IMG/VR virus record: IMGVR_UViG_3300046004_001116
Span: 1-64,000 of that record
Reading direction: 5' to 3' (one strand)
DNA: 64,000 nt
Origin: a virus
Shown piece by piece: positions 7,816 through 46,547 of this stretch (position 1 is the first letter of the stretch; each line of letters starts with the position of its first letter). A program made the translations under genes and the position numbers. The notes beneath the pieces are model-generated. The model saw only the letters and a list, made by a program, of their open reading frames with translations, was not told the origin of the DNA and did no database searches.

Positions 7816-7880
7816 TTAACATAAATTTAACACTTTAAATTTGCTTGGTATGTAATTTTTGGTTAATTTTATACTATAAT
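7816..7880 (+). promoter_or_regulatory. Bacteroidota sigma-A type early promoter with tandem TTAACA boxes
   Basis: TTAACA 7816/7827, TTTG 7840, TAATTTTA 7864 (20-nt spacer). Confidence 0.7.
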
Positions 7881-9788: not shown

Positions 9789-10064
9789 ATGACAGATATA
9801 GAAAAAGTAGACAGCTACAAAATTAAAGTTAAGGAAGCTTTAGCAAATAATCCTCAAATGATTATTGGAGAACTTACAGAAGAAGATGCCGCTCACGTTA
9901 GAGATATTGCGTTTTCAGTAATTATGTCTCGTGAAGGAATCTTTAGTGCAGGTGGATTCGTAAGTGCAATACTTGCCAACGATCTAGAAGATGCTATCGG
10001 TAGAGCTGATACTACTTGCTTACGTGCATTGAAGTTCTTTGTCTACATAAATCGTTACCTTTAA
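9789..10064 (+). CDS. Hypothetical protein
   Basis: ORF with GGFVSAILANDL motif. Confidence 0.65.
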   Translation: MTDIEKVDSYKIKVKEALANNPQMIIGELTEEDAAHVRDIAFSVIMSREGIFSAGGFVSAILANDLEDAIGRADTTCLRALKFFVYINRYL

Positions 10065-27395: not shown

Positions 27396-27637
27396 CCACT
27401 TAAATTATTCTTTAAAGAACTATTATTCAATTCTGTATAAAAATACTATCTCTTAGTTTGGAAGGTAGAACAGTAAACAACAAAGTAAAGTTGATCTTTC
27501 TATGGATAAGATCCGAGATCCTTTGGAGGTTTCTACCTTGTTTAACAATGCAAAAGAAAAGAAAGGATCGTGAATGTATATTCAGTTCTTCTTTTATTAA
27601 AAGCAAGAGATATGAAAAACAACTATTTCCTAACGGC

Positions 27638-28315
27638 ATGTCAAAACTTAAAACATCAATAGTTTTATTTATAGCTGTACTTGTTGCTTCGGCCATGATG
27701 TCGGTTAACAAGAATAATCTTATAGTAGTAAAACACAAGTATTACAAATCAACATTTGATACTAACTTAAATTATCCAGTGAAAGTAGAATATTGGCTTA
27801 CTCGCAATATGCACTTATGTAATAAACATATTCCTCGTCCTGGAGATTTTAAAGAAGACCCACAAATTGGCAAATCCAATAACCTGGATATATCATATGT
27901 TAAAAGCGGTTACGATCGCGGTCATAACTTTCCAGCATACGATGGTTCTTGTGACCAAACTGGAATGTACGAATCATTCTATTATACAAACATGACACCA
28001 CAAGCACCTGGATTAAACAGAGGCGGTTGGAAATCACTTGAAGAGAACATAAGAAAAGAATCTGAGCTTAACGATAGTATATATGTAGCAACAGGTTCAA
28101 TCCAAGGAATCTCAACAAAAACTGTAGGTGGCAACGGTTGTCCTAAAGTAGCAATTCCAGCATCTTGTTGGAAAGCATATTGGGTAAAACGCACTGGTAA
28201 GAAAGTAGCTTATCTTTTTCCTAATTCTAAAGTTGACGTAAAAGACATTGATAAATACTTAATCAGTGTTAAACAACTCGAAAAAAGCGTTGGAAAACTA
28301 TTTCCAACCAATTAA
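27638..28315 (+). CDS. DNA/RNA non-specific endonuclease with N-terminal signal/TM segment
   Basis: YDRGHNFP, NMTPQ..LNRGGW..LEE; ATG 27638 preferred over upstream TTG. Confidence 0.85.
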   Translation: MSKLKTSIVLFIAVLVASAMMSVNKNNLIVVKHKYYKSTFDTNLNYPVKVEYWLTRNMHLCNKHIPRPGDFKEDPQIGKSNNLDISYVKSGYDRGHNFPAYDGSCDQTGMYESFYYTNMTPQAPGLNRGGWKSLEENIRKESELNDSIYVATGSIQGISTKTVGGNGCPKVAIPASCWKAYWVKRTGKKVAYLFPNSKVDVKDIDKYLISVKQLEKSVGKLFPTN

Positions 28316-29115: not shown

Positions 29116-29811
29116 ATGAACAAAACACAATTTACTAATCGTTGGTCAAATATGAATTTGTCCCAACAGGAGTTAGACCGCAAATGGCGTTTACAATTAG
29201 AAGCGCAAGAACAAGAACTTATGATGGCTGAACAAGCTGTTTATTTGGCAAGTATTAATCCTATGAATGCACTGCATGTTGGTGCTTTTGGCGGAGGAAC
29301 TTTAACACCTCCTGAACCACCTGCACCGTCTTCACCATTAACAGTTTTACGGTATGCTACTTCACAAGGTGAAGAAGTTGTGTGGCCTGAAGATTTTCCA
29401 TTAACTTTTACGTTAGATCCAACTTTACCTGATTTTTCTTATACTCTTGATGTATCCTATATCCCACCATCTCAAGTCCCAACTCCTGCTGCTTTAATAG
29501 GTGTTACAATTGGAAATACAGTTACAAGTATTGGTGACCTTGCTTTTACTAATTGTTTTAATTTGGCATCTGTTACATTTGCGCCAATTTCAACAGTTAC
29601 AAGTATTGGTTCTAACGCGTTTTCAACTTGCCCCTCATTAACATCTATTGAAATTCCAGATTCAGTTACAAGTGTGGGTGGTAATGCATTTGCTAGTTCA
29701 GGATTACAAACTGTAACTATATCTTCAGCAACCGCAATTGCTATTGGTATAACATCACCTACTGTTGGGGTTAACTTTTTTGGAGTGACTGTTGATACTA
29801 TTCTTCCTTAA
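29116..29811 (+). CDS. BspA-type LRR_5 protein with QQELDRKWR N-terminal module
   Basis: VTSIGxxAFxxC...IPDSVTSVGGNAF repeats. Confidence 0.75.
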   Translation: MNKTQFTNRWSNMNLSQQELDRKWRLQLEAQEQELMMAEQAVYLASINPMNALHVGAFGGGTLTPPEPPAPSSPLTVLRYATSQGEEVVWPEDFPLTFTLDPTLPDFSYTLDVSYIPPSQVPTPAALIGVTIGNTVTSIGDLAFTNCFNLASVTFAPISTVTSIGSNAFSTCPSLTSIEIPDSVTSVGGNAFASSGLQTVTISSATAIAIGITSPTVGVNFFGVTVDTILP

Positions 29812-29861
29812 TAACGTAAAAGTACATTTAAAACTTTTTTCAACTTTTTTCACTAAATGTA

Positions 29862-29890
29862 AAACTAAGTAAAAAGGCAAGTATATATAA
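29862..29890 (+). promoter_or_regulatory. RAACT-N17-TATATAA promoter driving leader 1
   Basis: Same geometry at 34546, 38315, 43745, 61728. Confidence 0.65.
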
Positions 29891-29919
29891 TAAACAAAAC
29901 AATTAATAAATCAAAAACA

Positions 29920-30021
29920 ATGAAATCTCAAGTAATAAATATGGTCCCTGCGTATATTGCCAATCAGCCGATTGAGCAAAAGGAATCTTATTCTAAATCT
30001 GGAGATATTATATTTGAGTAA
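29920..30021 (+). CDS. Leader peptide of tRNA operon 1 (MKSQVINMVPAYIANQPIEQKESYSKSGDIIFE)
   Basis: A-rich start; contains TCTGGAG (29998-30004) complementary to the terminator arm. Confidence 0.8.
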   Translation: MKSQVINMVPAYIANQPIEQKESYSKSGDIIFE

Positions 30022-30046
30022 ATACACAACTATAACCAACATATCT

Positions 30047-30079
30047 AAGCTCCAGAATTAATTTTCTGGAGCTTTTTTT
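30047..30079 (+). terminator. Attenuator terminator 1
   Basis: aagctccagaa-ttaatt-ttctggagcttttttt. Confidence 0.85.
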
Positions 30080-30091
30080 ATTGCGATTAAT

Positions 30092-30147
30092 TTAACAAAA
30101 CTTTAACATATAGAATTTGCTTGGTATGAAATTATTGGTTAATTTTG
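30092..30147 (+). promoter_or_regulatory. Bacteroidota sigma-A type promoter with TTAACA boxes
   Basis: TTTG 30116, TAATTTTG 30140. Confidence 0.75.
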
Positions 30148-30172
30148 CTCTATAATTAAAAACAACATTATT

Positions 30173-30325
30173 ATGGCAACAATTACAACATACAAGATTA
30201 AAGAAAAGTACAAATCACTTTTAGCTACATATGCTTGGACTAAACTTGATTTAAACGGATCTTATTCTAAAGAAGATTGGAATAAAGCTGGTTTTAAAGA
30301 TTCTGTCTTAGATATTAATTGTTAA
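30173..30325 (+). CDS. Small hypothetical protein (50 aa)
   Basis: ORF MATITTYKIKEKY... behind the promoter. Confidence 0.5.
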   Translation: MATITTYKIKEKYKSLLATYAWTKLDLNGSYSKEDWNKAGFKDSVLDINC

Positions 30326-30690
30326 TAACTTTATGAATAAAAGTTTGCATTAGTCAATTTAATTGGTTAATTTTAACTAACAATAAAAATTTAATTATCA
30401 TGTCTATACAAAATCGAAAGTTAATCAGAAGCATATACGGAATCCACGGTCTAATCAATATTTTAAGTGGGTTTGACGTAAACGGAAATAATTGTTAAAA
30501 TTTCATTTAGCTTCGGCTAAGTATTATTCGTGGTACCAGGCGGGCAGTAGGGGTTACCGAATTAAAACAAACAAGAATGGTGAAATATGGGCTGGCCAGG
30601 CAACATAAAGTAACAACGACGCTCAGCGGTATCAATTCAAAACCTCCTCGTGGTGATACTGGAAACTTGATTCGTCAAGGCTAATTTGAA

Positions 30691-30703
30691 GTTCATTGAC
30701 ATA
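30691..30703 (+). promoter_or_regulatory. boxA-like antitermination signal (second copy 34860-34872)
   Basis: gttcattgacata / attctttgacata just before the first tRNA of each operon. Confidence 0.55.
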
Positions 30704-30715
30704 GTGATAACATTT

Positions 30716-30790
30716 ACGAGATTAGCTCAGTTGGTTCAGAGCAACTCTTTTACACGGAGAAGGTCACAGGTTCGAATCCTGTATCTCGTA
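30716..30790 (+). tRNA. trnV: tRNA-Val(TAC)
   Basis: Cloverleaf, loop TTTACAC. Confidence 0.9.
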
Positions 30791-30993
30791 CTAATGAATT
30801 AAACGGTCTAAGGATTAGGACGCTGGCGTAAGGCACCGGCTGAAACGCCGACCATCGTTGGAGAGATTCTACTCTCTAATTCATAACACACTGCAGTGAT
30901 TGCCGGCCACACGCATCGGTTCTTAACGGGAAATCGTTCTCGTCGTTAGGTGAACAGACCGGACAAATTCCTTAGGTGGTGCTAGGGTCAACT

Positions 30994-31067
30994 GCTGCTA
31001 TAGACGAATTGGTTAAGTCGTCGCCCTTTCAAGGCGGAGGTTGCGGGTTCAAGTCCCGTTGGCAGTA
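30994..31067 (+). tRNA. trnE: tRNA-Glu(TTC)
   Basis: Cloverleaf, loop CTTTCAA. Confidence 0.9.
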
Positions 31068-31073
31068 CAACAT

Positions 31074-31148
31074 GAGCGCTGAAGCACAATCGGACGTGCA
31101 CCTGGCATACGGCCAGTAGGATATAGGTTCGAATCCTATCTTTGCTCC
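31074..31148 (+). tRNA. Atypical/pseudo tRNA, loop CATACGG (A33)
   Basis: D and T arms intact, weak acceptor, no U33. Confidence 0.5.
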
Positions 31149-31156
31149 AAATACTT

Positions 31157-31230
31157 TCTCCTGTCGTCTAGTCGGCTCAGGACGCTGCCCTTTCACGGCG
31201 GTAACGCGGGTTCGAATCCCGTCGGGAGAA
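31157..31230 (+). tRNA. trnE: tRNA-Glu(TTC)
   Basis: Cloverleaf, loop CTTTCAC. Confidence 0.9.
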
Positions 31231-31332
31231 CAACACTACCGAATGGTGTAATCTATGTGTTAAAAGAACAGCGCTGGCTGAGACCAGAGTTCCACCGTAA
31301 TTGTAGTAATCGGTGATTCGGTAAACAATATT

Positions 31333-31404
31333 GGTTTCGTAGCTCAGAGGCAGAGCGGCACCCTGTTAAGGTGAGGGTCGGGATTTCGATATTCCCCGAG
31401 ACCG
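31333..31404 (+). tRNA. trnN: tRNA-Asn(GTT)
   Basis: Cloverleaf, loop CTGTTAA. Confidence 0.88.
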
Positions 31405-31415
31405 CAATTAAAAAA

Positions 31416-31586
31416 TAGCTTTCAGCCAAAGGTGGCGGGCAATACTTTTACTCAGTTATGTATGGACTGTCTTAGACGTAAGGTGGAAAATCATAAAGGT
31501 TTAAATAGGATATGACTCTGATTGTCGACGAGATGAGAGTATCTGATAAGTATCGCTGGGTGGGTTCGATTCCCATTGTGAGCTCA
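31416..31586 (+). ncRNA. tRNA-like RNA with ~100-nt extended arm replacing the anticodon arm
   Basis: AGCTTTCA/TGTGAGCT stem, D-like arm, T arm gtgggTTCGATTcccat. Confidence 0.55.
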
Positions 31587-31590
31587 AGAT

Positions 31591-31664
31591 TCCTCAGTAG
31601 CTCAGTTGGTTAGAGCGTCGGACTGTTAATCCGTAGGTCCTAGGTTCGAGTCCTAGCTGGGGAG
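31591..31664 (+). tRNA. trnN: tRNA-Asn(GTT)
   Basis: Cloverleaf. Confidence 0.92.
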
Positions 31665-31822
31665 CAAAAGTTGATTACTTTAGGTTACAGGAATTACCAG
31701 AAACCTGTCGACATACTCTTGGGCGTAAGGCAAGAGCAGATTTTGAACCAGGTTTAATCTGTAATGTAAACCTACTCGTATTTAACAATTATACGTTAAG
31801 TCTAATCAACTAAATTGTAACT

Positions 31823-31908
31823 GGCCTTGTAGCTCAATTGGATTGCATTACGCTTAGAGCCACCGACTTTTAATCGGTAGGTTGGGGGTTCGAGTCCCTC
31901 CAGGGTCA
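31823..31908 (+). tRNA. trnK: tRNA-Lys(TTT) with enlarged D loop
   Basis: Loop CTTTTAA; ~12 extra nt in the D loop. Confidence 0.8.
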
Positions 31909-32006
31909 CAAAGGAATAATTACTCTGGCGGTGGTGCGGGTAAGCGCCGGGAAGTAACGCCCGGTTGGCAAAGTAAATTATTCAGAGGTAAGGAAAAGAC
32001 TAAACT

Positions 32007-32079
32007 GGGGCTATGGTATAGATGGCTAACACACTTGCCTTGCACGCAGGAATCCCGAGTTCGAGGCTCGGTAGCTCCA
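32007..32079 (+). tRNA. trnA: tRNA-Ala(TGC)
   Basis: G3-U70, loop CTTGCAC. Confidence 0.92.
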
Positions 32080-32336
32080 CGGGAGTTTTTGAAACGGCCT
32101 ACTCTTTGAGGCACGTGATATTTGTACTTTAACAAAATTCACAGTATGGCAAGAGGGTTTTTGGAAGCGGCTTTAAGGTATAAGCAATGTATTTGACCAG
32201 AACAAAATCATAGTATAACTATCTTCTGTCACGTTAGCAGACCGGGTATGGCTACGCACAGTTTGGAAGTAATATGTGTATTAAACAAAACTTTCACCGC
32301 GGCGAAACGTTTCCCAAAACAAAGTAGTCGCAAGAA

Positions 32337-32421
32337 GGGAGTACGCCGGAGTTGGAGAGCCGGAGCGGTCTGTAACACCGTTGGCATTACGCCTGAGTAG
32401 GTTCGAATCCTACTACTTTCA
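32337..32421 (+). tRNA. trnY: tRNA-Tyr(GTA)
   Basis: Long variable arm, loop CTGTAAC. Confidence 0.9.
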
Positions 32422-32424
32422 CAA

Positions 32425-32503
32425 AAATTGAAGCGGAGGTAAGAGTTACATCAACTTTTTATTGGAAAAAACAAACAAACACTCTTCCTAATATTCTCAA
32501 TTT
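32425..32503 (+). ncRNA. Minimal Y-RNA-like gene
   Basis: GAAGCGG...GAGTTACATC / CTC...TAATATTCTC stem shared with the RNAs upstream of Ro60. Confidence 0.7.
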
Positions 32504-32506
32504 CAT

Positions 32507-32577
32507 TGTCCGATGGTGTAACGGTAACACTACTGTTTTTGGTGCAGTCATTCAAGGTTCGAATCCTTGTCGGATAA
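32507..32577 (+). tRNA. trnQ: tRNA-Gln(TTG)
   Basis: Cloverleaf. Confidence 0.9.
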
Positions 32578-32586
32578 CTATTATAT

Positions 32587-32659
32587 TGGAATATGGTATA
32601 ATGGCTCATTACACGTGGTTTTGGTCCACGCAATCAAGGTTCGATTCCTTGTATTCCAA
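32587..32659 (+). tRNA. trnQ: tRNA-Gln(TTG)
   Basis: Cloverleaf. Confidence 0.9.
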
Positions 32660-32664
32660 CAATT

Positions 32665-32739
32665 CGCGTAGCGATCCACAGAGAGAGGTTACCCGCCTTG
32701 GACGCGGGGTTATTGCAGGTTCGAGTCCTGTCTACGCGA
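32665..32739 (+). tRNA. trnP: tRNA-Pro(TGG), divergent D arm
   Basis: Loop CTTGGAC; perfect acceptor and T arm. Confidence 0.8.
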
Positions 32740-32750
32740 CAAATTTTTAA

Positions 32751-32823
32751 CGGGGTGTAGATCAGTTGGTAGATCGCGTGCTTTGGGAGCATGAGGCCGC
32801 AGGTTCGAGTCCTGTCACCCCGA
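32751..32823 (+). tRNA. trnP: tRNA-Pro(TGG)
   Basis: Cloverleaf. Confidence 0.92.
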
Positions 32824-32889
32824 CGAGACGAGACTGTTACTAATTCATAGGGGCCCATTCACGCAAGTGTCTGCATAGAATTAGAATTT

Positions 32890-32963
32890 AGGTGGTTAGC
32901 TCAACTGGTTAGAGCACTCGCCTGATACGCGAGAGGTTATGAGTTCGACTCTCATATCACCTA
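32890..32963 (+). tRNA. trnI: tRNA-Ile(GAT)
   Basis: Cloverleaf. Confidence 0.92.
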
Positions 32964-33031
32964 CTAAAAAATATAAAAGTCAAATGAAACAAATTTTAGT
33001 CAACTCCTCATAGGTTAGCATTGCTAAACTT

Positions 33032-33262
33032 ATGACTCAGAAATTGAGAATTTGGAGAGTAGTTCCCGTTCGTAACGGCGTTCAGGCTCCCACTTTTTTT
33101 GTAGAAACTACAGAAGAAGGACGCGACAAGGCAGAAGTATCTGCTTTAAAACAAGCAAGACAAAGGTCAGGCTTGAGTAAATTTGATTGTTGGAATTTCA
33201 ATCTTATCAAAACAGAATTAAGGTTAGATAAGTTTGGAAGATATGTAAAGTATCACCAATAA
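33032..33262 (+). CDS. Small hypothetical protein within the tRNA array
   Basis: 76-aa ORF filling an inter-tRNA gap. Confidence 0.6.
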   Translation: MTQKLRIWRVVPVRNGVQAPTFFVETTEEGRDKAEVSALKQARQRSGLSKFDCWNFNLIKTELRLDKFGRYVKYHQ

Positions 33263-33308
33263 TAAACTGGGCAGTTTTCGGTCTGCGTAATAATTAAAAC
33301 CGAAATTT

Positions 33309-33380
33309 GGTGATGTAGCTCAGCGGCAGAGCACCCGGCTCATATCCGGAAGGTCGAGGTCTCGGAATCCTCCATCGCTA
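33309..33380 (+). tRNA. trnM: tRNA-Met(CAT), atypical T loop
   Basis: Loop CTCATAT; T loop CTCGGAA. Confidence 0.75.
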
Positions 33381-33384
33381 CAAA

Positions 33385-33443
33385 TGTATACTTTAATATA
33401 CAATATGGTCTAAAACGGCTATAATTGTATATTAAAGTATACA
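33385..33443. repeat. 20-bp perfect inverted repeat
   Basis: tgtatactttaatatacaat / attgtatattaaagtataca. Confidence 0.85.
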
Positions 33444-33452
33444 AACAATAAA

Positions 33453-33594
33453 TTCCAGAAGCGGCAAAGAGAGTTACTTCGTCTGTTAAACGAGAGGTCG
33501 TAGGTTCGAGTCCTACTGCGTGTACCTTGATGGGAAACGTATAGCTCAGTTGGTTAGAGCGCTAAAAATCTCTCTCTTAATTATTCTCTGGCAA
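33453..33594 (+). ncRNA. YrlA-like Y RNA with permuted tRNA-like domain
   Basis: Shared terminal stem enclosing GTT hairpin, T arm, loop-closed acceptor, then D arm. Confidence 0.8.
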
Positions 33595-33597
33595 TTT

Positions 33598-33671
33598 GAC
33601 TCGGTAGCTCAGTTGGTAGTAGCACCTCACTTTTAATGAGGGGGTCGTGGGTTCGAGTCCCACCCGGGTCA
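33598..33671 (+). tRNA. trnK: tRNA-Lys(TTT)
   Basis: Cloverleaf. Confidence 0.92.
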
Positions 33672-33685
33672 CAAATATTAATCAT

Positions 33686-33763
33686 GGGAGCAGCTGGGAT
33701 AGCGCGGGTGGTGTCGAGCCACCTTTCACCGGTAGCTTGAGGTTCGAGTCCTCTTTGTTCCCC
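33686..33763 (+). tRNA. Atypical tRNA-like gene, 8-bp acceptor, loop TGTCGAG (G33)
   Basis: T arm tgaggTTCGAGTcctct; reduced D arm. Confidence 0.5.
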
Positions 33764-33777
33764 TAAATGTTATCAGT

Positions 33778-34029
33778 ATGACACGAGAACAGAAAATAGC
33801 AAAAAGGAAACTTCGTGCTTCTATCCACAGAGAAAAAAGAAACGAAAAGTACTTTAAAAAAATACGAGCGGCAAATGATATAGGCGGGTGGGTTCCACTT
33901 TATGCCGTTGATAGCCGTGGATACGTTTCAGGTTCATGGCCTGACTCAAGTAGCCCTACAGGATATTCACAAAGATGTTCTTATGATGCCTGGGGAACTT
34001 GTCAAAGTCCATGCAACGGAGACTGTTAA
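33778..34029 (+). CDS. Small basic/Cys-containing hypothetical protein
   Basis: 83-aa ORF ending CQSPCNGDC. Confidence 0.6.
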   Translation: MTREQKIAKRKLRASIHREKRNEKYFKKIRAANDIGGWVPLYAVDSRGYVSGSWPDSSSPTGYSQRCSYDAWGTCQSPCNGDC

Positions 34030-34033
34030 AAAT

Positions 34034-34092
34034 TGGGAGGTCGCATAGTTGGTTAGTGCTCATCTTCGGTGGTTCGAGTCCACCCCTCCCCA
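34034..34092 (+). ncRNA. tRNA-like RNA lacking the anticodon arm
   Basis: Acceptor, D and T arms intact; 8-nt linker tcatcttc. Confidence 0.7.
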
Positions 34093-34281
34093 CTAAGATT
34101 TAATCTGCTAAACGCAAAATGGTATGTTGCCGCCGATAACTACGGAAACACAAGCAAGGAAGGAGGTCACTTGCCGCATACAGGAAACACAGATCCGTTC
34201 ATTTTGTTAGTAAGGTATCGGGTACATTCGGTTGTACTTGGGTATTCACCAATCTGTGCCGGTGACAGATTAAATTTTTAT

Positions 34282-34355
34282 GGCCATGTAACTCAGTTGG
34301 TTAGAGTGCCCGCCTCATAAGCGGAGAGTCCTTGGTTCGAGTCCAAGCTTGGCCA
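34282..34355 (+). tRNA. tRNA-CAT (elongator Met or Ile2)
   Basis: Loop CTCATAA. Confidence 0.85.
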
Positions 34356-34545
34356 CATGAAAACGCAAGTAACGGTATTATTCCGAAGCGATGATAAGAA
34401 TTACAATTGGTCATCAGTATTATCTAAAGAAGTAGGATATGAATTTGTTAAACTACAGAAAATAGAGAACACGGATAATCCAAGATGGCCAAAATGGTCT
34501 TTTATCATTACTTACAAAAAAAGTAAATAAAAATGCAAAAGTGTA

Positions 34546-34574
34546 AAACTAACCGTTTTCACGTGTATATATAA
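34546..34574 (+). promoter_or_regulatory. RAACT-N17-TATATAA promoter driving leader 2
   Basis: Matches the 29862 element. Confidence 0.65.
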
Positions 34575-34596
34575 TAAACAACAAATAAATTAAACA

Positions 34597-34704
34597 ATGC
34601 AAACACAATCATTACATACAAGATCGTTTACGTCAAGCTGGAACTTATGTTTCGGACTAGGGCGCGATTGTGACATAGATCTGGAGGATCTGACTACTAT
34701 CTAA
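34597..34704 (+). CDS. Leader peptide of tRNA operon 2 (MQTQSLHTRSFTSSWNLCFGLGRDCDIDLEDLTTI)
   Basis: A-rich start; TCTGGAG at 34680-34686. Confidence 0.8.
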   Translation: MQTQSLHTRSFTSSWNLCFGLGRDCDIDLEDLTTI

Positions 34705-34729
34705 TGTAATTTGCATACAAGATATTTTC

Positions 34730-34762
34730 AAAGCTCCAGAATTAATTTTCTGGAGCTTTTTT
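34730..34762 (+). terminator. Attenuator terminator 2 (identical hairpin to terminator 1)
   Basis: aaagctccagaa-ttaatt-ttctggagctttttt. Confidence 0.85.
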
Positions 34763-34774
34763 ATTGCGATTAAT

Positions 34775-34830
34775 TTAACAAAACTTTAACATATTAAATT
34801 TGCTTTACATCTTTTAATTGGTTAATTTTA
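34775..34830 (+). promoter_or_regulatory. Bacteroidota sigma-A type promoter with TTAACA boxes
   Basis: TTTG 34799, TAATTTTA 34823. Confidence 0.7.
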
Positions 34831-34887
34831 TACTGTAATTAAAAACAACCATTAATTGCATTCTTTGACATACTGAAAACTAAAATT

Positions 34888-34960
34888 GGTGCTGTGGCAG
34901 ATCAGGTGATTGCGGCGGACTGAAAATCCGTAGGAGTGGGTTCGATACCCACCGGCACCA
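34888..34960 (+). tRNA. trnF: tRNA-Phe(GAA)
   Basis: Cloverleaf. Confidence 0.9.
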
Positions 34961-35075
34961 CACAAACTTATTTAAGGTTCGACCCTCACCCATTTTGCGC
35001 TCAATTCGCATTTACTTTGGAAGACTGGTTCTAGAGGGAGCTACCGACTGATAAGTGGCCGCACACGCGGCAAAT

Positions 35076-35150
35076 GCCTGAGTGGGTAAACTGGTAAAGC
35101 CGCTTGACTTAGGATCAAGAGTTCTGTGGGTTCGACTCCCACCTCGGGTA
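35076..35150 (+). tRNA. trnL: tRNA-Leu(TAG), short variable arm
   Basis: Loop CTTAGGA; A73. Confidence 0.85.
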
Positions 35151-35234
35151 CAAATTATTTAGTTCCATGCATAAGCTCAAACAGCTCCCTGAAATTACAT
35201 GGTTTAAAGGAGCTTAAACTAAATAATAAATTTT

Positions 35235-35311
35235 GGTGCCGCAGCATATCGGCGTATGATGCTCGCCTGTCACGTGGGAGATTGCGGGTTCGAATCCCGT
35301 CGGTACCGCCA
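35235..35311 (+). tRNA. trnD: tRNA-Asp(GTC), CCA encoded
   Basis: Cloverleaf, weak D arm. Confidence 0.88.
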
Positions 35312-35351
35312 TCTGGTTAAGATTCCAGAGAACAATCAAAAATCTACAAAC

Positions 35352-35425
35352 ACCCTCATGGTCCAGTTGGAGTGGATGTCGCCCTGTCACGGCGAAGATC
35401 GCGGGTTCGAGTCCCGCTGGGGGTG
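35352..35425 (+). tRNA. trnD: tRNA-Asp(GTC)
   Basis: Cloverleaf. Confidence 0.9.
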
Positions 35426-35531
35426 CAAAAAACTGGGGTAGAAAAATCTTAGGACGGCAATCCGTAGATGTAATACGATGGTTACTGCACAAAGAGAAAA
35501 GTAATTTGCCGATGAAATTCACTTAGCAGTT

Positions 35532-35619
35532 TTCCTTTTGATGAAATTGGCAAACATGGCTCGCGCGAAGCGAGTGCTCAGGGTTTACTCTGATAAAGGT
35601 TCGAGTCCTTTAAGGGAAA
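35532..35619 (+). tRNA. Atypical class II tRNA, loop CGCGAAG (CGA anticodon, G33, Leu-like body)
   Basis: Full cloverleaf with long variable arm, A73. Confidence 0.6.
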
Positions 35620-35644
35620 CAAATTTCAGGAGTAATTAACCTGA

Positions 35645-35781
35645 AGCTGAATGGTTCGAAACATTCGATTGGTCATGGTGTATTGGGCACGGTAGAACGG
35701 AGTAATCGTACGCAGAGCGTTAGGCTCTCAACGGCGGTGAAAGGGAAAACAGGTTAAAGGTTCGAATCCTTAGGATCAGCT
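35645..35781 (+). ncRNA. tRNA-like RNA with two T-loop hairpins
   Basis: AGCTGA/TCAGCT closure; gttcgaa motifs at ~35654 and ~35760; D-like arm. Confidence 0.45.
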
Positions 35782-35852
35782 TGCGTTAAAGTGTAAAGGT
35801 TGCATGGGACTCTCATAAGGTCTACGGGGTGGTTCGAGTCCACGCTACGCTA
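35782..35852 (+). tRNA. Degenerate tRNA-CAT
   Basis: Loop CTCATAA, mismatched acceptor stem. Confidence 0.5.
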
Positions 35853-35939
35853 CAAAATTCTAAGTGTGTCTTGGTACGCTCTGACAACCGTCAACGACAA
35901 GGTCTCGGTAGGCAAAACGCGTTTGATCCTACCCATTCT

Positions 35940-36013
35940 GCAGTAGTAGCTCAGTTGGTAGAGCGCTGCCTTGCCAAGGCAGAGGTTCGCGGGTTCGAAT
36001 CCCGTCTACTGCT
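35940..36013 (+). tRNA. trnG: tRNA-Gly(GCC)
   Basis: Cloverleaf. Confidence 0.92.
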
Positions 36014-36020
36014 CAAATAT

Positions 36021-36094
36021 GCGGGTATGGTGTTTAACGGTTAGCACGTGAGCCTTCCAAGTTTGAAGTTTCGGTTCGAATCCGAATATCCGCT
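36021..36094 (+). tRNA. trnG: tRNA-Gly(TCC)
   Basis: Cloverleaf. Confidence 0.9.
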
Positions 36095-36099
36095 CAACT

Positions 36100-36173
36100 G
36101 GTCTTGTAGCTCAACTGGATAGAGCATTGGTTTTCTAAACCAACGGTTATGGGTTCGATTCCCGTCAAGATCA
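36100..36173 (+). tRNA. trnR: tRNA-Arg(TCT)
   Basis: Cloverleaf. Confidence 0.92.
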
Positions 36174-36180
36174 CAAACAT

Positions 36181-36251
36181 ACGCCTATGGTGCAACGGTA
36201 GCATGACGGTCTCCAAAACCGTTGATAAAGGTTCGAATCCTTTTGGGCGTG
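36181..36251 (+). tRNA. trnW: tRNA-Trp(CCA)
   Basis: Cloverleaf. Confidence 0.92.
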
Positions 36252-36260
36252 CAAATATAA

Positions 36261-36347
36261 GGAGAGGTGCCAGAGTGGTCGATTGGACCGGTCTTGAAAA
36301 CCGGAGAGCGTGAAAGCGCTCCGTGGGTTCGAATCCCACCCTCTCTT
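36261..36347 (+). tRNA. trnS: tRNA-Ser(TGA)
   Basis: Class II cloverleaf. Confidence 0.92.
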
Positions 36348-36350
36348 CAA

Positions 36351-36498
36351 AATTAGAAGCGGTACATTGAGATACTTCAATATCCAAAACTGCCATTTGT
36401 TGGTTCGAGTCCAACCTGAGGTGTTAATAGCACCTCGGTGGTGAAATGGTAAACACAGCAGTCCCAAAACAAGACGCTCATGTAAACATTCTCTAATT
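36351..36498 (+). ncRNA. Second YrlA-like Y RNA with permuted tRNA-like domain
   Basis: TTAGAAGCGG-TACATTGAG / CTCATGTA-AACATTCTCTAA stem; T arm, loop-closed acceptor, D arm. Confidence 0.8.
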
Positions 36499-36503
36499 GA
36501 ATT

Positions 36504-36577
36504 GCTGGCGACGCATGAATGGTGGTGCACCGGATTTGTAACCCGGACTAGAGTCGGTTCGATCCCGACCGTCAGCT
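36504..36577 (+). tRNA. trnT: tRNA-Thr(TGT)
   Basis: Cloverleaf. Confidence 0.85.
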
Positions 36578-36583
36578 CAAAAT

Positions 36584-36654
36584 GGCCCTATGACCGAGCG
36601 GTTAGGTGCAGGTCTGCAAAATCTGTTAGGTTGGTTCGACTCCAACTGGTGCCT
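36584..36654 (+). tRNA. trnC: tRNA-Cys(GCA)
   Basis: Cloverleaf, U73. Confidence 0.9.
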
Positions 36655-36657
36655 CGA

Positions 36658-36852
36658 GAATAATCAGAGGACTCATCGCTGGAAACAGAGGAAGTTCGCG
36701 ACAACTAAACCTAACATGGGAGATGTAAAAATCGTTCGTACCACGGAAGTTGCAAGTTAAACAGTTTGAGGGTGTCGGTTTCCCTATGAGAACGGGTTAA
36801 TGCAAAGTCAAATGATGGGATAAAACAGAAACGCGGCTACGCTCAATTATTC
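36658..36852 (+). ncRNA. rnpB: Minimal RNase P RNA
   Basis: GAGGAAGTTCGCG (CR-I) and AACAGAAACGCGGCTA (CR-V) forming P4; P1 GAATAAT/ATTATTC. Confidence 0.8.
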
Positions 36853-36857
36853 AAATT

Positions 36858-36939
36858 GCCCAGGTGGAGAAATTGGTAGACTCGCCAGCCTAAGGAGCTG
36901 GTGCCGCAAGGCGTGAGGGTTCGAGTCCCTCCTTGGGTA
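36858..36939 (+). tRNA. trnL: tRNA-Leu(AAG)
   Basis: Class II cloverleaf, loop CTAAGGA. Confidence 0.88.
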
Positions 36940-36951
36940 CAAAATTAAAAT

Positions 36952-37041
36952 GGGCCGATTGGTGTAACTGGGAATGAATACCAGCTTGGGTTAACACGAA
37001 CCTGTAGGTTCGGCTGAGAGTTCGAATCTCTCATCGGTCCC
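36952..37041 (+). ncRNA. Atypical tRNA-like gene with 8-bp acceptor and no clear anticodon
   Basis: GGGCCGAT/ATCGGTCC; T arm gagagTTCGAATctctc. Confidence 0.55.
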
Positions 37042-37157
37042 GGTATCTCCCAAGGGAGAAAACTCTGGTTGGTGGTCTGACCTTATAGACCGCAATAAGA
37101 CTGTCAAGGTAGGACGTCAGTTATAGAGAGGTGAGCCATACCTATTCCTCTCAACAT

Positions 37158-37232
37158 GGTGATTGTAGCTCAGTTGGTTAGAGCGCTGGTTTGTGGTACC
37201 AGAGGTCGCGGGTTCGACCCCCGTCATTCACC
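37158..37232 (+). tRNA. trnH: tRNA-His(GTG)
   Basis: G-1/C73, loop TTGTGGT. Confidence 0.92.
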
Positions 37233-37247
37233 CTAAAAAGAATACTT

Positions 37248-37397
37248 ATGAAAGGCATTGAATTAATTCCAATTGGGCCTGTTTCTGAAGAAGCAAAGGC
37301 TAGGTTAAAGAAACGATCTGAAAGGGATAAAGCAAGATTAGACCAAATGGTTAAAGACGCTAAAGAAGGCAAGTATGATCATATAATAAACAAATAG
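37248..37397 (+). CDS. Small hypothetical protein
   Basis: ATG 37248, MKGIELIPIG... Confidence 0.5.
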   Translation: MKGIELIPIGPVSEEAKARLKKRSERDKARLDQMVKDAKEGKYDHIINK

Positions 37398-37402
37398 AAA
37401 GC

Positions 37403-37624
37403 ATGAAAGCGGGAGCTAAAACAACAGACAAAGATTTTAATAACTTAATTACATACTTGGAAAGATTCAAAGGTGCTAATATTACAATCACTGTTGATAA
37501 AAATCCTTCGCCTGAAAAGATTGCTTATATAAAAGAAAGAATAAAGATAAGTGAGCAACGTGCTCAAAACGGCCGGGTGGTGGAACTGGTAGACACGCTG
37601 GGTTTAAGCCCCAGTGGGCAGTAA
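37403..37624 (+). CDS. Small hypothetical protein whose 3' end overlaps tRNA-Leu
   Basis: ORF reads into the tRNA at 37571. Confidence 0.45.
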   Translation: MKAGAKTTDKDFNNLITYLERFKGANITITVDKNPSPEKIAYIKERIKISEQRAQNGRVVELVDTLGLSPSGQ

Positions 37625-37656
37625 TGCCCGTGCGGGTTCGAATCCCGCTCTGGTCA
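37571..37656 (+). tRNA. trnL: tRNA-Leu(TAA)
   Basis: Class II cloverleaf. Confidence 0.92.
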
Positions 37657-37660
37657 CAAA

Positions 37661-37746
37661 GGAGAGGTAAGCATAGTGGTACTGCAGCGGATTGCTAATC
37701 CGTTCGGCGTTTATTCGTCGCGTGGGTTCGATCCCCACTCTCTCCG
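37661..37746 (+). tRNA. trnS: tRNA-Ser(GCT)
   Basis: Class II cloverleaf. Confidence 0.9.
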
Positions 37747-37765
37747 CAATATATAATAAAACAAT

Positions 37766-37837
37766 GGCCTGTTAGTTTAACGGATAGAACTCTGGTTTAC
37801 GGCATCAGCGATGGGGGTTCGAGTCCCTCACGGGTCA
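37766..37837 (+). tRNA. trnR: tRNA-Arg(ACG)
   Basis: Loop TTACGGC. Confidence 0.88.
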
Positions 37838-37861
37838 CTAATCAAATAAAAAACAAATGTC

Positions 37862-38314
37862 ATGGTATTTAGAAAGCTCGCAGATAGGCAGGAAGTTGAC
37901 TTATTACCATACGCACATGATTTCCTAACGGAACATCCAGAGCATAAACTCTACGTGGGTACGGATAGTCAAAACATCGGAAAAACTACAGTTTATGCAA
38001 CAGTTATTGTGTTTCATAATAACAACGGTGGTGGTCACGTTTTATATTCTAAGGTAACAGTACCTAGAATCGCGGACAGATGGACCAGATTGTGGAAAGA
38101 AGTAGAAATGTCAGTTCAAGCAGCTGACCTTTTAAAAGAAGGAGATTTTCATCCGGTAGATTTTATTGACTTGGATTTAAACCCAGACCCAAGATACAAA
38201 TCGAATATGGTCTTAAGATCAGCTGTTGGTTATGTTGAGAGTTTTGGTTACAAAGCAAGAGTAAAACCGAATGCGACTATTGCATCTTGTGTTGCAGATA
38301 GTATCTTCCGTTAA
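37862..38314 (+). CDS. RNase H-like YkuK (DUF458) family protein
   Basis: YVGTDSQ, RLWKEV..S, KPNA.IAS.VAD. Confidence 0.8.
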   Translation: MVFRKLADRQEVDLLPYAHDFLTEHPEHKLYVGTDSQNIGKTTVYATVIVFHNNNGGGHVLYSKVTVPRIADRWTRLWKEVEMSVQAADLLKEGDFHPVDFIDLDLNPDPRYKSNMVLRSAVGYVESFGYKARVKPNATIASCVADSIFR

Positions 38315-38407
38315 GAACTATTATATAAGAAGTGAATATATAATCTATAATACTTTGGGGTGTAAAAGCCCCAAATATTTTTACTAACTAAAATAAAACA
38401 AAAAAAC

Positions 38408-38764
38408 ATGAAGTAGGTACAAACAAAATTCTCCGAAACAAAATTAATCGTTGTCACTAGATCTGATATTTCTCCGGGCTATCAAGTAGTCCAATCAACA
38501 CACTCAATCGCTGATTTCTCATATCAGCATCCTGAAGCTTTCCAACAGTGGAAGAATGATTCAAACTCAATCATTTGCCTTTCAGTGCCTTCAGAAGAGA
38601 AACTTCTCAAACTATTTAATAAATTCGAAAACCGTATACCGGCTACAGCGTTCTATGAACCAGACGTATCCGAATGGACTTCCGTGTGCTTACTTGGCAC
38701 CCCAGAGATTCGTAAAGCACTTTCGCATTTACCGCTATCATTAAAAAACTCCGATGTATTATGA
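38408..38764 (+). CDS. Peptidyl-tRNA hydrolase Pth2-like protein with in-frame TAG at codon 3 (not in ORF track)
   Basis: ATG AAG TAG then open frame ...KLIVVTRSDISPGYQVVQSTHS...IICLSV...FYEPD...TSVCL...LSHLPL. Confidence 0.7.
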
Positions 38765-46078: not shown

Positions 46079-46151
46079 TGCGGGGTAGAGCAGTTGGTAG
46101 CTCAGTGGGCTCATAACCCAAAGGTCGCAGGTTCGAGTCCTGCCCCCGCTA
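46079..46151 (+). tRNA. trnfM: Initiator tRNA-fMet(CAT)
   Basis: 1-72 mismatch, three G-C pairs in the anticodon stem. Confidence 0.92.
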
Positions 46152-46486: not shown

Positions 46487-46547
46487 GTTAATAACTTAAG
46501 ACCTGCAAATTTTTATTTGTAGGTTTTTTTGTTTAATTTTATATACT

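What the first reader, a model, noticed from the sequence alone, without database searches (positions are those of the whole stretch)
29862..37837. Two tRNA operons split the 20 amino acids 10/10, each behind a leader-peptide attenuator matched to its own ten amino acids
Seen: operon 1 (30716-34355) has canonical tRNAs only for V,E,N,K,A,Y,Q,P,I,M and operon 2 (34888-37837) only for F,L,D,G,R,W,S,T,C,H. Each is preceded by the same architecture: RAACT-N17-TATATAA promoter, a 33-35 codon ORF, then an identical hairpin aagctccagaa/ttctggagctt plus T-run. In leader 1, 20 of codons 2-22 belong to set 1; in leader 2, 21 of codons 5-26 belong to set 2; each leader contains all ten amino acids of its set. 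The otherwise unrelated ORFs both keep TCTGGAG, in different reading frames, just after the sensing stretch, and it is complementary to the terminator 5' arm CTCCAGA. Established: trp/his/ilv-type attenuation works this way but for biosynthetic operons. Inference: the phage senses loss of any charged tRNA (starvation or host anticodon nucleases such as PrrC, RloC, VapC, PARIS) by ribosome stalling and then transcribes the half of its tRNA set containing the replacement. I know of no description of such a pan-amino-acid attenuator on phage tRNA arrays. Caveats: host-type promoters lie downstream of both terminators, so only the upstream promoter is gated; a degenerate CAT tRNA in operon 2 and an atypical TCG-loop gene in operon 1 do not fit the split.
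Basis: partly seen in the sequence, partly recalled or inferred. Interest (0 to 1): 0.97.

Follow-up and report, generated by a model that had tools for sequence, protein, structure and literature searches.

The report
Leader-peptide attenuators gating phage tRNA operons
A lake-water giant phage puts a tiny test gene, written in the amino acids of the tRNAs that follow, plus a switchable transcription stop in front of each of its two tRNA gene blocks, so it probably makes a block only when ribosomes run short of those tRNAs.

Summary
Two tRNA operons (18 and 17 Rfam-supported genes) split the 20 amino acids 10/10. Each follows the same promoter motif, a 33- or 35-aa ORF and an identical terminator. 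Of 184,756 possible 10/10 partitions, the real one is the single best fit to the two peptides.

Relatives decide the reading. I collected 27 leader/terminator/tRNA units from 10 phage records. The tRNA set behind a leader was the best match to that leader in 20 of 27 units (permutation z 14.7, 0 of 5000). The match is frame-specific, and 156 of 163 tRNA species have a cognate codon in their own leader.

Each leader carries, near its 3' end, a segment complementary to its own terminator's 5' arm. In strain variants of this phage, 9 of 9 substitutions in the sensing stretches stay within the operon's own amino-acid set.

Best reading: trp/ilv-type ribosome-mediated attenuation, applied to tRNA genes. 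Function is inferred; there is no bench or clean transcript evidence.

Caveats: second promoter-like motifs lie behind both terminators, no protector hairpin was found, and some relatives lack the system.

My literature searches found no paper describing it. This scan has reported the same system on other phage DNA.

The parts
29862..29890 (+). Promoter-like motif P1 of unit 1 (AAACT-N17-TATATAA; longer shared form AAAACTA-N13-GTATATATAAT)
   Evidence: The same motif heads the leader in relative L034 and in strain L146.
29920..30021 (+). Leader ORF 1, 33 aa, MKSQVINMVPAYIANQPIEQKESYSKSGDIIFE
   Evidence: Four strain variants all cover 10 of 10 set-1 residues.
29923..29985 (+). Sensing stretch 1 (codons 2-22): 20 of 21 residues in set V,E,N,K,A,Y,Q,P,I,M
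   Evidence: All 10 tRNA species of operon 1 have a cognate codon here.
29998..30004 (+). Antiterminator strand (region 2) of unit 1: TCTGGAG, complementary to CTCCAGA in the terminator 5' arm
   Evidence: Duplex -11.9 kcal/mol, z -3.15 against shuffles. In the MFE of the nascent transcript, the 5' arm pairs with nt 79-85 of the ORF.
30047..30081 (+). Intrinsic terminator 1: 11-bp stem, 6-nt loop, T-run
   Evidence: Hairpin energy -17.0 kcal/mol.
30116..30147 (+). Second promoter-like motif P2 (TTTG...ATTGGTTAATTTTG) behind terminator 1; not gated by the attenuator
   Evidence: It lies in a ~125-nt block that is near-identical between the two units.
30716..34356 (+). tRNA operon 1: V,E,(V),E,N,N,K,A,Y,Q,Q,P,P,I,M,K, an anticodon-arm-less tRNA-like gene, M
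34546..34574 (+). Promoter-like motif P1 of unit 2
34597..34704 (+). Leader ORF 2, 35 aa, MQTQSLHTRSFTSSWNLCFGLGRDCDIDLEDLTTI
   Evidence: Seven strain variants all cover 10 of 10 set-2 residues.
34609..34674 (+). Sensing stretch 2 (codons 5-26): 21 of 22 residues in set F,L,D,G,R,W,S,T,C,H
   Evidence: Of 15 tRNA species found by ARAGORN in operon 2, 14 have a cognate codon; Gly(gcc) is missing.
34680..34686 (+). Antiterminator strand (region 2) of unit 2: TCTGGAG, in a different reading frame from unit 1
   Evidence: Duplex -12.0 kcal/mol, z -2.15. Pairs with the 5' arm in the nascent-transcript MFE.
34730..34765 (+). Intrinsic terminator 2: 12-bp stem, 6-nt loop, T-run
   Evidence: Hairpin energy -17.9 kcal/mol.
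34799..34829 (+). Second promoter-like motif P2 behind terminator 2
34888..37838 (+). tRNA operon 2: F,L,D,D,S,G,G,R,W,S,T,C,L,H,L,S,R

Best explanation
Each tRNA operon is gated by a ribosome-mediated (leader-peptide) transcription attenuator.

Proposed sequence of events. Transcripts from the upstream phage-type promoter P1 first encode a short ORF. Its central stretch is written in codons read by the tRNAs of the operon behind it. If those codons are decoded quickly, the ribosome runs to the end of the ORF and covers the TCTGGAG segment (region 2). Region 2 ends about 14 nt before the stop codon. The terminator hairpin, about 26 nt after the stop, then forms, and transcription ends before the tRNA genes. 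If any cognate charged tRNA is scarce, the ribosome stalls upstream. Region 2 stays free and pairs with the terminator's 5' arm (CTCCAGA) as soon as that arm is made. RNA polymerase then reads through into the tRNA genes.

Net effect. This is demand-driven negative feedback on the supply of each tRNA set.

Shown: the anatomy; covariation of leaders with tRNA content and with terminator sequence; the frame and codon specificity of the match; and set-preserving evolution of the leaders.

Inferred: that the leaders are translated, the polarity of the switch, and its physiological triggers.

In this phage a second promoter-like motif behind each terminator probably gives an ungated basal supply.
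For: (1) Window. The real 10/10 split is the single best of 184,756 partitions for both leaders.

(2) Covariation across relatives. In 27 units from 10 records, the unit's own tRNA set ranks first of 27 in 20 units. The summed score is 332 against 94 +/- 16 for shuffled assignments; 0 of 5000 shuffles reach it. The partitions differ between phages: 20 aa behind one leader in L034; S,T,L,R,C in G007; N,Y,Q / F,P,V / W,H / I,R / D,A,C,E / S,L / K,M,G,T in G019 and G021. In each of those two, the seven leader-gated sets jointly cover all 20 amino acids.

(3) Frame-specific. Mean score is 12.3 in the ORF frame against 2.6 in each other frame; the ORF frame is best in 25 of 27 units.

(4) Codon level. 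156 of 163 tRNA species have a cognate codon in their own leader, against 146.6 +/- 3.2 after synonymous reshuffling; 4 of 2000 reshuffles reach it.

(5) Antiterminator. The leader pairs with its own terminator's 5' arm at a mean of -9.6 kcal/mol. The two controls give -6.5 (pairing with the 3' arm, Wilcoxon 7e-5) and -6.6 (other units' leaders against that terminator's 5' arm, Wilcoxon 3e-5). Mean z is -2.0 and 13 of 27 units have z < -2. In the MFE of the nascent transcript the 5' arm pairs upstream in 21 of 27 units, and exactly with TCTGGAG in both window units.

(6) Geometry. Region 2 ends a median 13 nt before the stop codon. The stop-to-hairpin spacer has a median of 26 nt (IQR 24-28).

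(7) Strain variants at about 89% nt identity. 9 of 9 amino-acid changes inside the sensing stretches stay in the operon's own set, against 3 of 9 in the tails (Fisher 0.009). All 11 variants cover 10 of 10.

(8) In 11 of 17 megaphage units the first tRNA starts 10-32 nt after the hairpin. That leaves no room for a second promoter.
Against: There is no functional or clean transcript evidence.

The terminator hairpins (-17.0 and -17.9 kcal/mol) are far more stable than the 7-bp antiterminator. Full-length MFE folds keep the terminator and pair TCTGGAG elsewhere.

I found no conserved protector (1:2) hairpin: mean z 0.04. An untranslated leader should therefore read through by default.

Promoter-like motifs behind both terminators could bypass the gate in this phage.

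The antiterminator signal is weak (z > -1) in 6 of 27 units.

Exact Watson-Crick codons are not enriched: 113 against 116.

Exceptions to the match:
- L034's all-20 leader precedes an array in which ARAGORN finds 14 amino acids, and its own set ranks 17 of 27.
- Strain L149 has a Leu(tag) gene inside operon 1.
- The window holds three sub-threshold misfit tRNA-like genes.

I found no leaders in G001/G002, G011, Lak-C1 or part of G022.

The units are not all independent: G019 and G021 share homologous operons.
Confidence: 0.78

Rival explanations
1. Same parts, inverted logic. Efficient translation of the leader promotes readthrough, so tRNA genes are transcribed more when their tRNAs are already plentiful. 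This would be feed-forward or a check on translational capacity.
For: No protector hairpin was found, so the default state of naked RNA is not obvious. The polarity was not measured.
Against: The stop codon lies a median 26 nt before the hairpin, so a terminating ribosome cannot melt the terminator. The segment complementary to the 5' arm lies inside the ORF, downstream of the sensing codons. A stalled ribosome leaves it free; a finishing ribosome covers it.
Confidence: 0.1
2. The terminators merely insulate the tRNA operons from upstream late genes. The operons are driven by the downstream promoter-like motifs, and the short ORFs are independent micro-genes or remnants.
For: P2-like motifs lie behind both window terminators and in L034 and L085.
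Against: This does not explain the composition match, its frame and codon specificity, the set-preserving substitutions or the terminator-matched segment in each ORF. In 11 of 17 megaphage units there is no room for a second promoter.
Confidence: 0.05
3. Leader translation acts after transcription, on processing or stability of the tRNA precursor or through Rho, rather than through the intrinsic terminator.
For: In many megaphage units the T-run abuts the first tRNA, so the leader must be cut off the precursor.
Against: Canonical hairpin-plus-T-run terminators are present in all 27 units. This was a selection criterion, so it carries little weight by itself. The antiterminator complementarity follows the terminator sequence.
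Confidence: 0.05
4. Coincidence of composition in two short ORFs.
For: Short AT-rich ORFs are common. One other 17-aa run in the window covers all ten set-1 residues.
Against: 1 of 184,756 partitions; 0 of 5000 permutations across 27 units; 9 of 9 set-preserving substitutions.
Confidence: 0.01

Closest known systems
Multivalent leader-peptide attenuators of enterobacterial amino-acid operons (ilvGMEDA leader: Ile/Leu/Val; thr leader: Thr/Ile; also trp, his, leu, phe). Recalled textbook knowledge, not looked up here.
   Same: A short ORF rich in regulatory codons, an intrinsic terminator, an alternative pairing that involves the terminator's 5' arm, and ribosome position as the signal. The ORF senses several amino acids at once.
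   Different: The regulated genes are tRNA genes, not biosynthetic enzymes. Up to 10 or 20 amino acids are sensed, mostly by single or few codons rather than runs. I detected no 1:2 protector or pause hairpin. The system is phage-borne. No Rfam leader family matched at E <= 1.
pheST attenuator (leader peptide pheM) of E. coli. Recalled.
   Same: Leader-peptide attenuation that controls a component of the translation apparatus according to charged-tRNA supply.
   Different: It controls a synthetase and senses one amino acid. I looked upstream of E. coli pheV and saw no Phe-rich leader there.
T-box riboswitches. Recalled.
   Same: Terminator/antiterminator switches that report tRNA charging and control translation-related genes.
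   Different: T-boxes bind uncharged tRNA directly, without a ribosome or an ORF. No T-box match in 29500-38500.
Anabaena sp. PCC 7120 trn operon: 26 tRNA genes, silent, induced under translational stress. Sources: PMC8421152 and PMC10272220. I saw the search listings and abstract starts, and ran term searches of the main texts.
   Same: An accessory tRNA array that is expressed on demand when translation is impaired.
   Different: By the paper's title, control is by a protein repressor (TrcR). The words 'leader' and 'attenuat' occur 0 times in either text. The array is bacterial and plasmid-borne, not phage-borne.
The same system as noted earlier by this scan on other phage DNA; not in print as far as those notes or my searches show.
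   Same: Leader ORF spelled in the operon's amino acids, a terminator, and a tRNA block in giant and crAss-like phages.
   Different: Here the 20 amino acids are split into exactly two halves, and the two units are a recent duplication sharing promoter, terminator and downstream block. Strain variants allowed a substitution test.

Membership tests
Ribosome-mediated (leader-peptide) transcription attenuator | Short ORF upstream of the regulated genes, enriched in codons for the regulated function | tested here: met
   Best of 184,756 partitions; own set ranks first in 20 of 27 units; frame-specific.
Ribosome-mediated (leader-peptide) transcription attenuator | Intrinsic terminator between the leader ORF and the regulated genes | tested here: met
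   Stems of 11-12 bp with a T-run; -17.0 and -17.9 kcal/mol.
Ribosome-mediated (leader-peptide) transcription attenuator | Alternative antiterminator pairing whose upstream strand is under ribosome control | tested here: met
   Region 2 lies inside the ORF, downstream of the sensing codons, and is complementary to the unit's own 5' arm. Controls are weaker (Wilcoxon 3e-5 to 7e-5).
Ribosome-mediated (leader-peptide) transcription attenuator | Protector or pause hairpin (1:2) that gives termination without translation (present in trp-type attenuators; not in every attenuator) | tested here: not met
   mean z 0.04 over 27 units.
Ribosome-mediated (leader-peptide) transcription attenuator | The leader is translated, and readthrough responds to charged-tRNA supply | not testable with these tools
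   Only contigs from RNA libraries were available. They cannot show transcript ends or levels.
Ribosome-mediated (leader-peptide) transcription attenuator | Regulated genes are amino-acid biosynthesis or aminoacyl-tRNA synthetase genes (the classical targets) | tested here: not met
   The regulated genes are 18 and 17 tRNA genes.
T-box riboswitch | Specifier loop and T-box sequence recognised by the Rfam model | tested here: not met
   No T-box match at E <= 1 in 29500-38500.

The most novel reading that the evidence does not exclude
Giant phages of Bacteroidota-type hosts run their whole accessory tRNA supply under codon-resolved, demand-driven feedback. The 20 amino acids are divided among 1, 2 or 7 independently gated operons, and each leader probes nearly every isoacceptor that it controls. 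This would let the phage replace exactly those tRNAs that infection, codon mismatch or host tRNA-cleaving defences deplete. It would be an inducible counter-defence and a natural single-transcript sensor for all 20 charged-tRNA pools.
Probability: 0.35. Interest if true: 0.95.

Novelty: new variant of a known kind. Interest (0 to 1): 0.88.

Why it matters
How phage tRNA genes are regulated is largely unknown; they are usually treated as constitutive codon-usage supplements. An attenuator that reads the tRNA pool itself would show that phages meter tRNA supply against demand. It would also extend leader-peptide attenuation from amino-acid metabolism to tRNA genes, and from one to three sensed amino acids to ten or twenty.

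It gives directly testable predictions: set-specific readthrough, heptamer and compensatory mutants, and codon swaps. It offers compact natural sensors of charged-tRNA pools for synthetic biology. It also links to current work on host tRNA depletion and anticodon-nuclease defences.

Tried and rejected
Searches that found nothing useful:
- A megablast of 29800-34900 against GenBank phages gave only short tRNA matches.
- The search for related loci with the two flanking proteins (RNase H-like 37862-38314, nuclease 27458-28315) found no relatives.
- Most of the 22 viral hits to the hairpin-core pattern were chance palindromes. L009 is an ordinary gene terminator.
- The promoter-pattern scan of viral contigs gave only L034's record as a true leader.
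- The search of earlier findings by place found no look-alike windows.

Records where I found no leaders:
- G001/G002 (MCP 73% identical) have a small array with a promoter-like motif but no leader.
- I found no leaders in Lak-C1, G011 or the first part of G022's array.
- Tenacibaculum phage PTm1 has no tRNA match.
- My detector needs near-perfect stems and an ATG start, so a miss is not evidence of absence.

Mechanistic checks that did not support the model:
- A protector 1:2 hairpin is not supported.
- Exact Watson-Crick codon enrichment is not supported.
- The cognate share of Leu/Ser/Arg codons is only weakly above expectation: 80 of 100 against 71, p 0.027.
- The strict Bacteroidota consensus TTTG-N17-23-TAnnTTTG is only weakly enriched: 9 against 4.8.

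RNA evidence was inconclusive. Four metatranscriptome runs are held only as contigs. Two contigs bridge terminator 2: X22 record 25 (34427-35311) and X19 record 4 (34221-34792). The libraries may contain DNA, and contigs show no ends, so I draw nothing from depth or gaps.

A recalled idea that E. coli tRNA-Phe genes have a Phe-rich leader was not borne out upstream of pheV. The old paper was not held.

Literature searches found no account of leader-peptide control of tRNA genes. I did not open any supplementary files. The papers on huge phages and Lak phages were not read, so a mention there or in their supplements cannot be excluded.

Full report
WHAT THE WINDOW IS

The window is the first 64 kb of an 85.9-kb IMG/VR virus record, estimated about 30% complete. 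All long ORFs lie on the + strand. The phage has a T4-type major capsid protein (Pfam Gp23, 6.8e-41) and a prohead protease.

The nearest GenBank capsids are an uncultured phage (LR756500.1, 43% identity) and the Prevotella Lak megaphages (39%). Tenacibaculum, Flavobacterium and Chryseobacterium phages come next. A Bacteroidota host is therefore likely but not shown.

Leaving out two runs that may be the source of this DNA, 9 further DNA runs from 9 studies hold half or more of the sampled words. All 9 are labelled lake water.

THE OBSERVATION

ARAGORN finds 31 tRNA genes between 30716 and 37838. Rfam adds two:
- a tRNA-Lys(UUU) with a 15-nt D-loop insert at 31823-31908 (58 bits; alignment);
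- a tRNA-Thr(UGU) at 36504-36577 (38.8 bits).

In the whole record, 36 Rfam matches pass the cut-off: 18 in operon 1, 17 in operon 2, and a lone tRNA(CAT) at 46079. Operon 1 carries only V,E,N,K,A,Y,Q,P,I,M. Operon 2 carries only F,L,D,G,R,W,S,T,C,H.

The only misfits are sub-threshold tRNA-like genes:
- 33687-33763, TCG loop, no Rfam tRNA match;
- 35780-35854, CAT, 24 bits against a cut-off of 29;
- 36953-37041, CTT.

Both operons are preceded by the same architecture:
- the promoter-like motif;
- ORFs of 33 and 35 aa at 29920-30021 and 34597-34704;
- an identical hairpin plus T-run.

The two units are a duplication. The promoter, the end of the 5' UTR, ATCTGGAG, and a ~125-nt block from the terminator through a second promoter-like motif are near-identical. 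The ORFs between them have diverged.

IS IT MORE THAN CHANCE?

In leader 1, 20 of 21 residues at codons 2-22 are in set 1. In leader 2, 21 of 22 residues at codons 5-26 are in set 2. Each leader has all ten residues of its set.

Given the window's amino-acid frequencies, such a stretch with full coverage has probability 4.4e-6 for leader 1 and 6.9e-8 for leader 2.

A second test does not depend on choosing a stretch. Among all 184,756 ways of splitting 20 amino acids 10/10, the split made by the tRNA operons is the only one that reaches the observed fit. This holds for the stretches (41 of 43) and for the whole peptides (53 of 66).

In a six-frame scan, one other set-1 run (17 aa at 9816) also covers ten of ten. 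No other top set-2 run does.

RELATIVES

The capsid protein has thousands of metagenomic relatives. An alignment of 20 of them brought in 54 viral loci. Through these, through pattern scans and through two GenBank records, I read tRNA regions in the relatives listed below.

The same architecture recurs, with different partitions of the amino acids:
- L034 (capsid 68% identical) has one leader of 48 aa containing all 20 amino acids. It follows the same promoter motif and precedes one mixed array.
- L085 has MKQLFSSMLEQPQPQRCESPLCNIRSLKNEG before Cys, Gln, Gln, Pro, Glu, Glu, Leu, Met.
- G007 has MKTQINITTSYSLRSLCTSLRLYETGYLC before Ser, Thr, Leu, Arg, Cys genes.
- The complete megaphages G019 (374 kb) and G021 (482 kb) each have seven leader-gated blocks: N,Y,Q / F,P,V / W,H / I,R / D,A,C,E / S,L / K,M,G,T. 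In each genome these jointly cover all 20 amino acids.
- G022 and GenBank LR756500.1 have still other partitions.

FORMAL TESTS ON THE UNITS

From 19 stretches my detector returned 28 units. I dropped one because no tRNA lay behind it. In the remaining 27:
- The unit's own tRNA set ranks first of 27 in 20 units. The summed score is 332 against 94 +/- 16 for shuffled assignments (maximum 166; 0 of 5000 reach it).
- The signal is confined to the ORF frame: mean 12.3 against 2.6 and 2.6, with the ORF frame best in 25 of 27.
- 156 of 163 tRNA species have a cognate codon by wobble in their own leader, against 146.6 +/- 3.2 when synonymous codons are redrawn (4 of 2000).
- Exact Watson-Crick codons are not enriched.

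Caveats on these tests. Arrays where I found no leader are not part of them: G001/G002, G011, Lak-C1 and part of G022. G019 and G021 share homologous operons, so the 27 units are not all independent.

THE SWITCH

Each leader holds, just after its sensing stretch, a segment that repeats its own terminator's 3' arm, and the terminators differ between units. Examples are AGACAGGGT in G007, TTAGAAG in L085 and CCGGGATTT in L105.

Duplex energy between a leader and its own 5' arm averages -9.6 kcal/mol. Pairing with the 3' arm gives -6.5. Other units' leaders against that 5' arm give -6.6. Wilcoxon p values are 7e-5 and 3e-5. Mean z against shuffles is -2.0, and 13 of 27 units are below -2.

In the MFE of the nascent transcript (ORF start to the end of the 5' arm), the arm pairs upstream in 21 of 27 units. 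In both window units it pairs exactly with TCTGGAG.

Region 2 ends a median 13 nt before the stop codon. From recalled footprint sizes, that is about the trailing edge of a terminating ribosome. The spacer from stop to hairpin is tightly kept: median 26 nt, IQR 24-28.

I found no conserved protector hairpin. The design is therefore two-state: region 2 is either covered by a finishing ribosome, or it is free to block the terminator.

The terminator is the more stable structure (-17 to -18 kcal/mol) and wins in full-length MFE folds. I recall that this is also true of the trp attenuator. It means the switch must be kinetic.

STRAIN VARIANTS

One metagenome scan with the hairpin pattern found lake-water relatives at about 89% nucleotide identity. 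They carry the same two operons.

Across 4 copies of leader 1 and 7 copies of leader 2:
- All 9 distinct amino-acid substitutions inside the sensing stretches give a residue of the operon's own set: V9I, P10A, I13N, N15I and I18N in leader 1; W15T, N16D, C18G and C18W in leader 2.
- N16D removes the single exception in leader 2.
- W15T comes together with C18W, so Trp is kept.
- Only 3 of 9 substitutions in the tails stay in set (Fisher 0.009).
- All 11 variants still cover ten of ten.
- CTGGAG is kept although the tail changes around it.

One variant (L149) has a Leu(tag) gene inside operon 1. Its leader 1 lies off the contig.

WHAT WEAKENS THE GATING STORY HERE

Behind both terminators lies a second promoter-like motif, TTTG...ATTGGTTAATTTT. 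It recurs at 7859 and 30363, and with one mismatch at 46529. L034 and L085 have similar motifs. In this clade, therefore, only transcription from P1 is gated.

In 11 of 17 megaphage units the first tRNA begins 10-32 nt after the hairpin, so there the attenuator is the only gate.

Contigs from RNA libraries bridge terminator 2. They cannot show transcript ends, and the libraries may contain DNA.

COMPARISON WITH WHAT IS KNOWN

The parts and the logic are those of leader-peptide attenuation. The closest cases are the multivalent ilv and thr leaders, and the pheST leader for a translation gene; these are recalled, not looked up.

The differences are the target (tRNA genes), the breadth (10 to 20 amino acids, with nearly every isoacceptor probed), the missing protector hairpin, and the phage setting. 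No Rfam leader or T-box family matched.

Eight full-text searches found no paper on such control of tRNA genes. The nearest in print is the Anabaena trn operon, which is induced under translational stress and is under a protein repressor (TrcR). Neither paper contains 'leader' or 'attenuat'.

Earlier notes of this scan describe the same system on other phage DNA. I treated them as leads only. One of them gave me the Anabaena reference, which I then checked.

VERDICT

The proposed triggers (defence nucleases, starvation) remain untested. I class this as a new variant of a known kind, of high interest.

Noticed in passing
window 33455-33594 and 40890-42512: A Y-RNA-like (YrlA) match of 34.3 bits, below the 69-bit cut-off, lies inside tRNA operon 1. 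It contains a permuted tRNA-like module. About 7 kb downstream is a TROVE/Ro60-like protein (Pfam TROVE 4.6e-8; PHROG 850 'RNA-binding protein' 5e-43). Together they could be a phage Ro60/Y-RNA pair.
   Followed up: partly
window 34034-34092: A tRNA-like gene lacking the anticodon arm: 4 nt where the Rfam model has 18. Score 30.8 bits against a cut-off of 29.
   Followed up: partly
window 31823-31908: tRNA-Lys(UUU) with a 15-nt insertion in the D-loop. ARAGORN misses it at default settings and misreads it at relaxed settings.
   Followed up: yes
window 30629-30691: A weak HDV-like ribozyme match (33.1 bits, cut-off 44) lies just upstream of the first tRNA. It sits within a ~550-nt insert (two small ORFs at 30174-30326 and 30401-30499, plus structured RNA) that strain L146 lacks.
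   Followed up: no
window 31540-31590, 35740-35780, 36385-36420, 36990-37040, 36659-36851: Many spacers between the tRNA genes end in T-arm-like GGTTCGA hairpins or look structured. One gives a weak archaeal RNase P match of 26 bits.
   Followed up: no
L101 2378, L102 1688, L109 1779 (G019, G021); L120 reverse strand 10281 (LR756500.1): Suppressor-type tRNA(CTA) genes are present in the megaphages that carry the leaders. This hints at TAG recoding.
   Followed up: no
leaders of L102, L110, L111, L112, L113, L120, L121 and window leader 1: Many leaders share an N-terminal M-K-x-x-(V/I)-N-I pattern and a Ser-Gly just after the sensing stretch. The Ser-Gly coincides with region 2 (TCNGG). In window leader 2 the same RNA motif is read in another frame, which points to an RNA-level constraint.
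   Followed up: partly
window 38315-38375: Another copy of the P1-type motif is followed within 12 nt by a terminator-like hairpin and T-run, with no ORF between them.
   Followed up: no
L149 656: A strain relative carries tRNA-Leu(tag) inside the otherwise set-1 operon. Its leader 1 lies off the contig.
   Followed up: no
window 37862-38314: An RNase H-like protein (PF04308, 1.9e-24) lies directly after the tRNA array.
   Followed up: no
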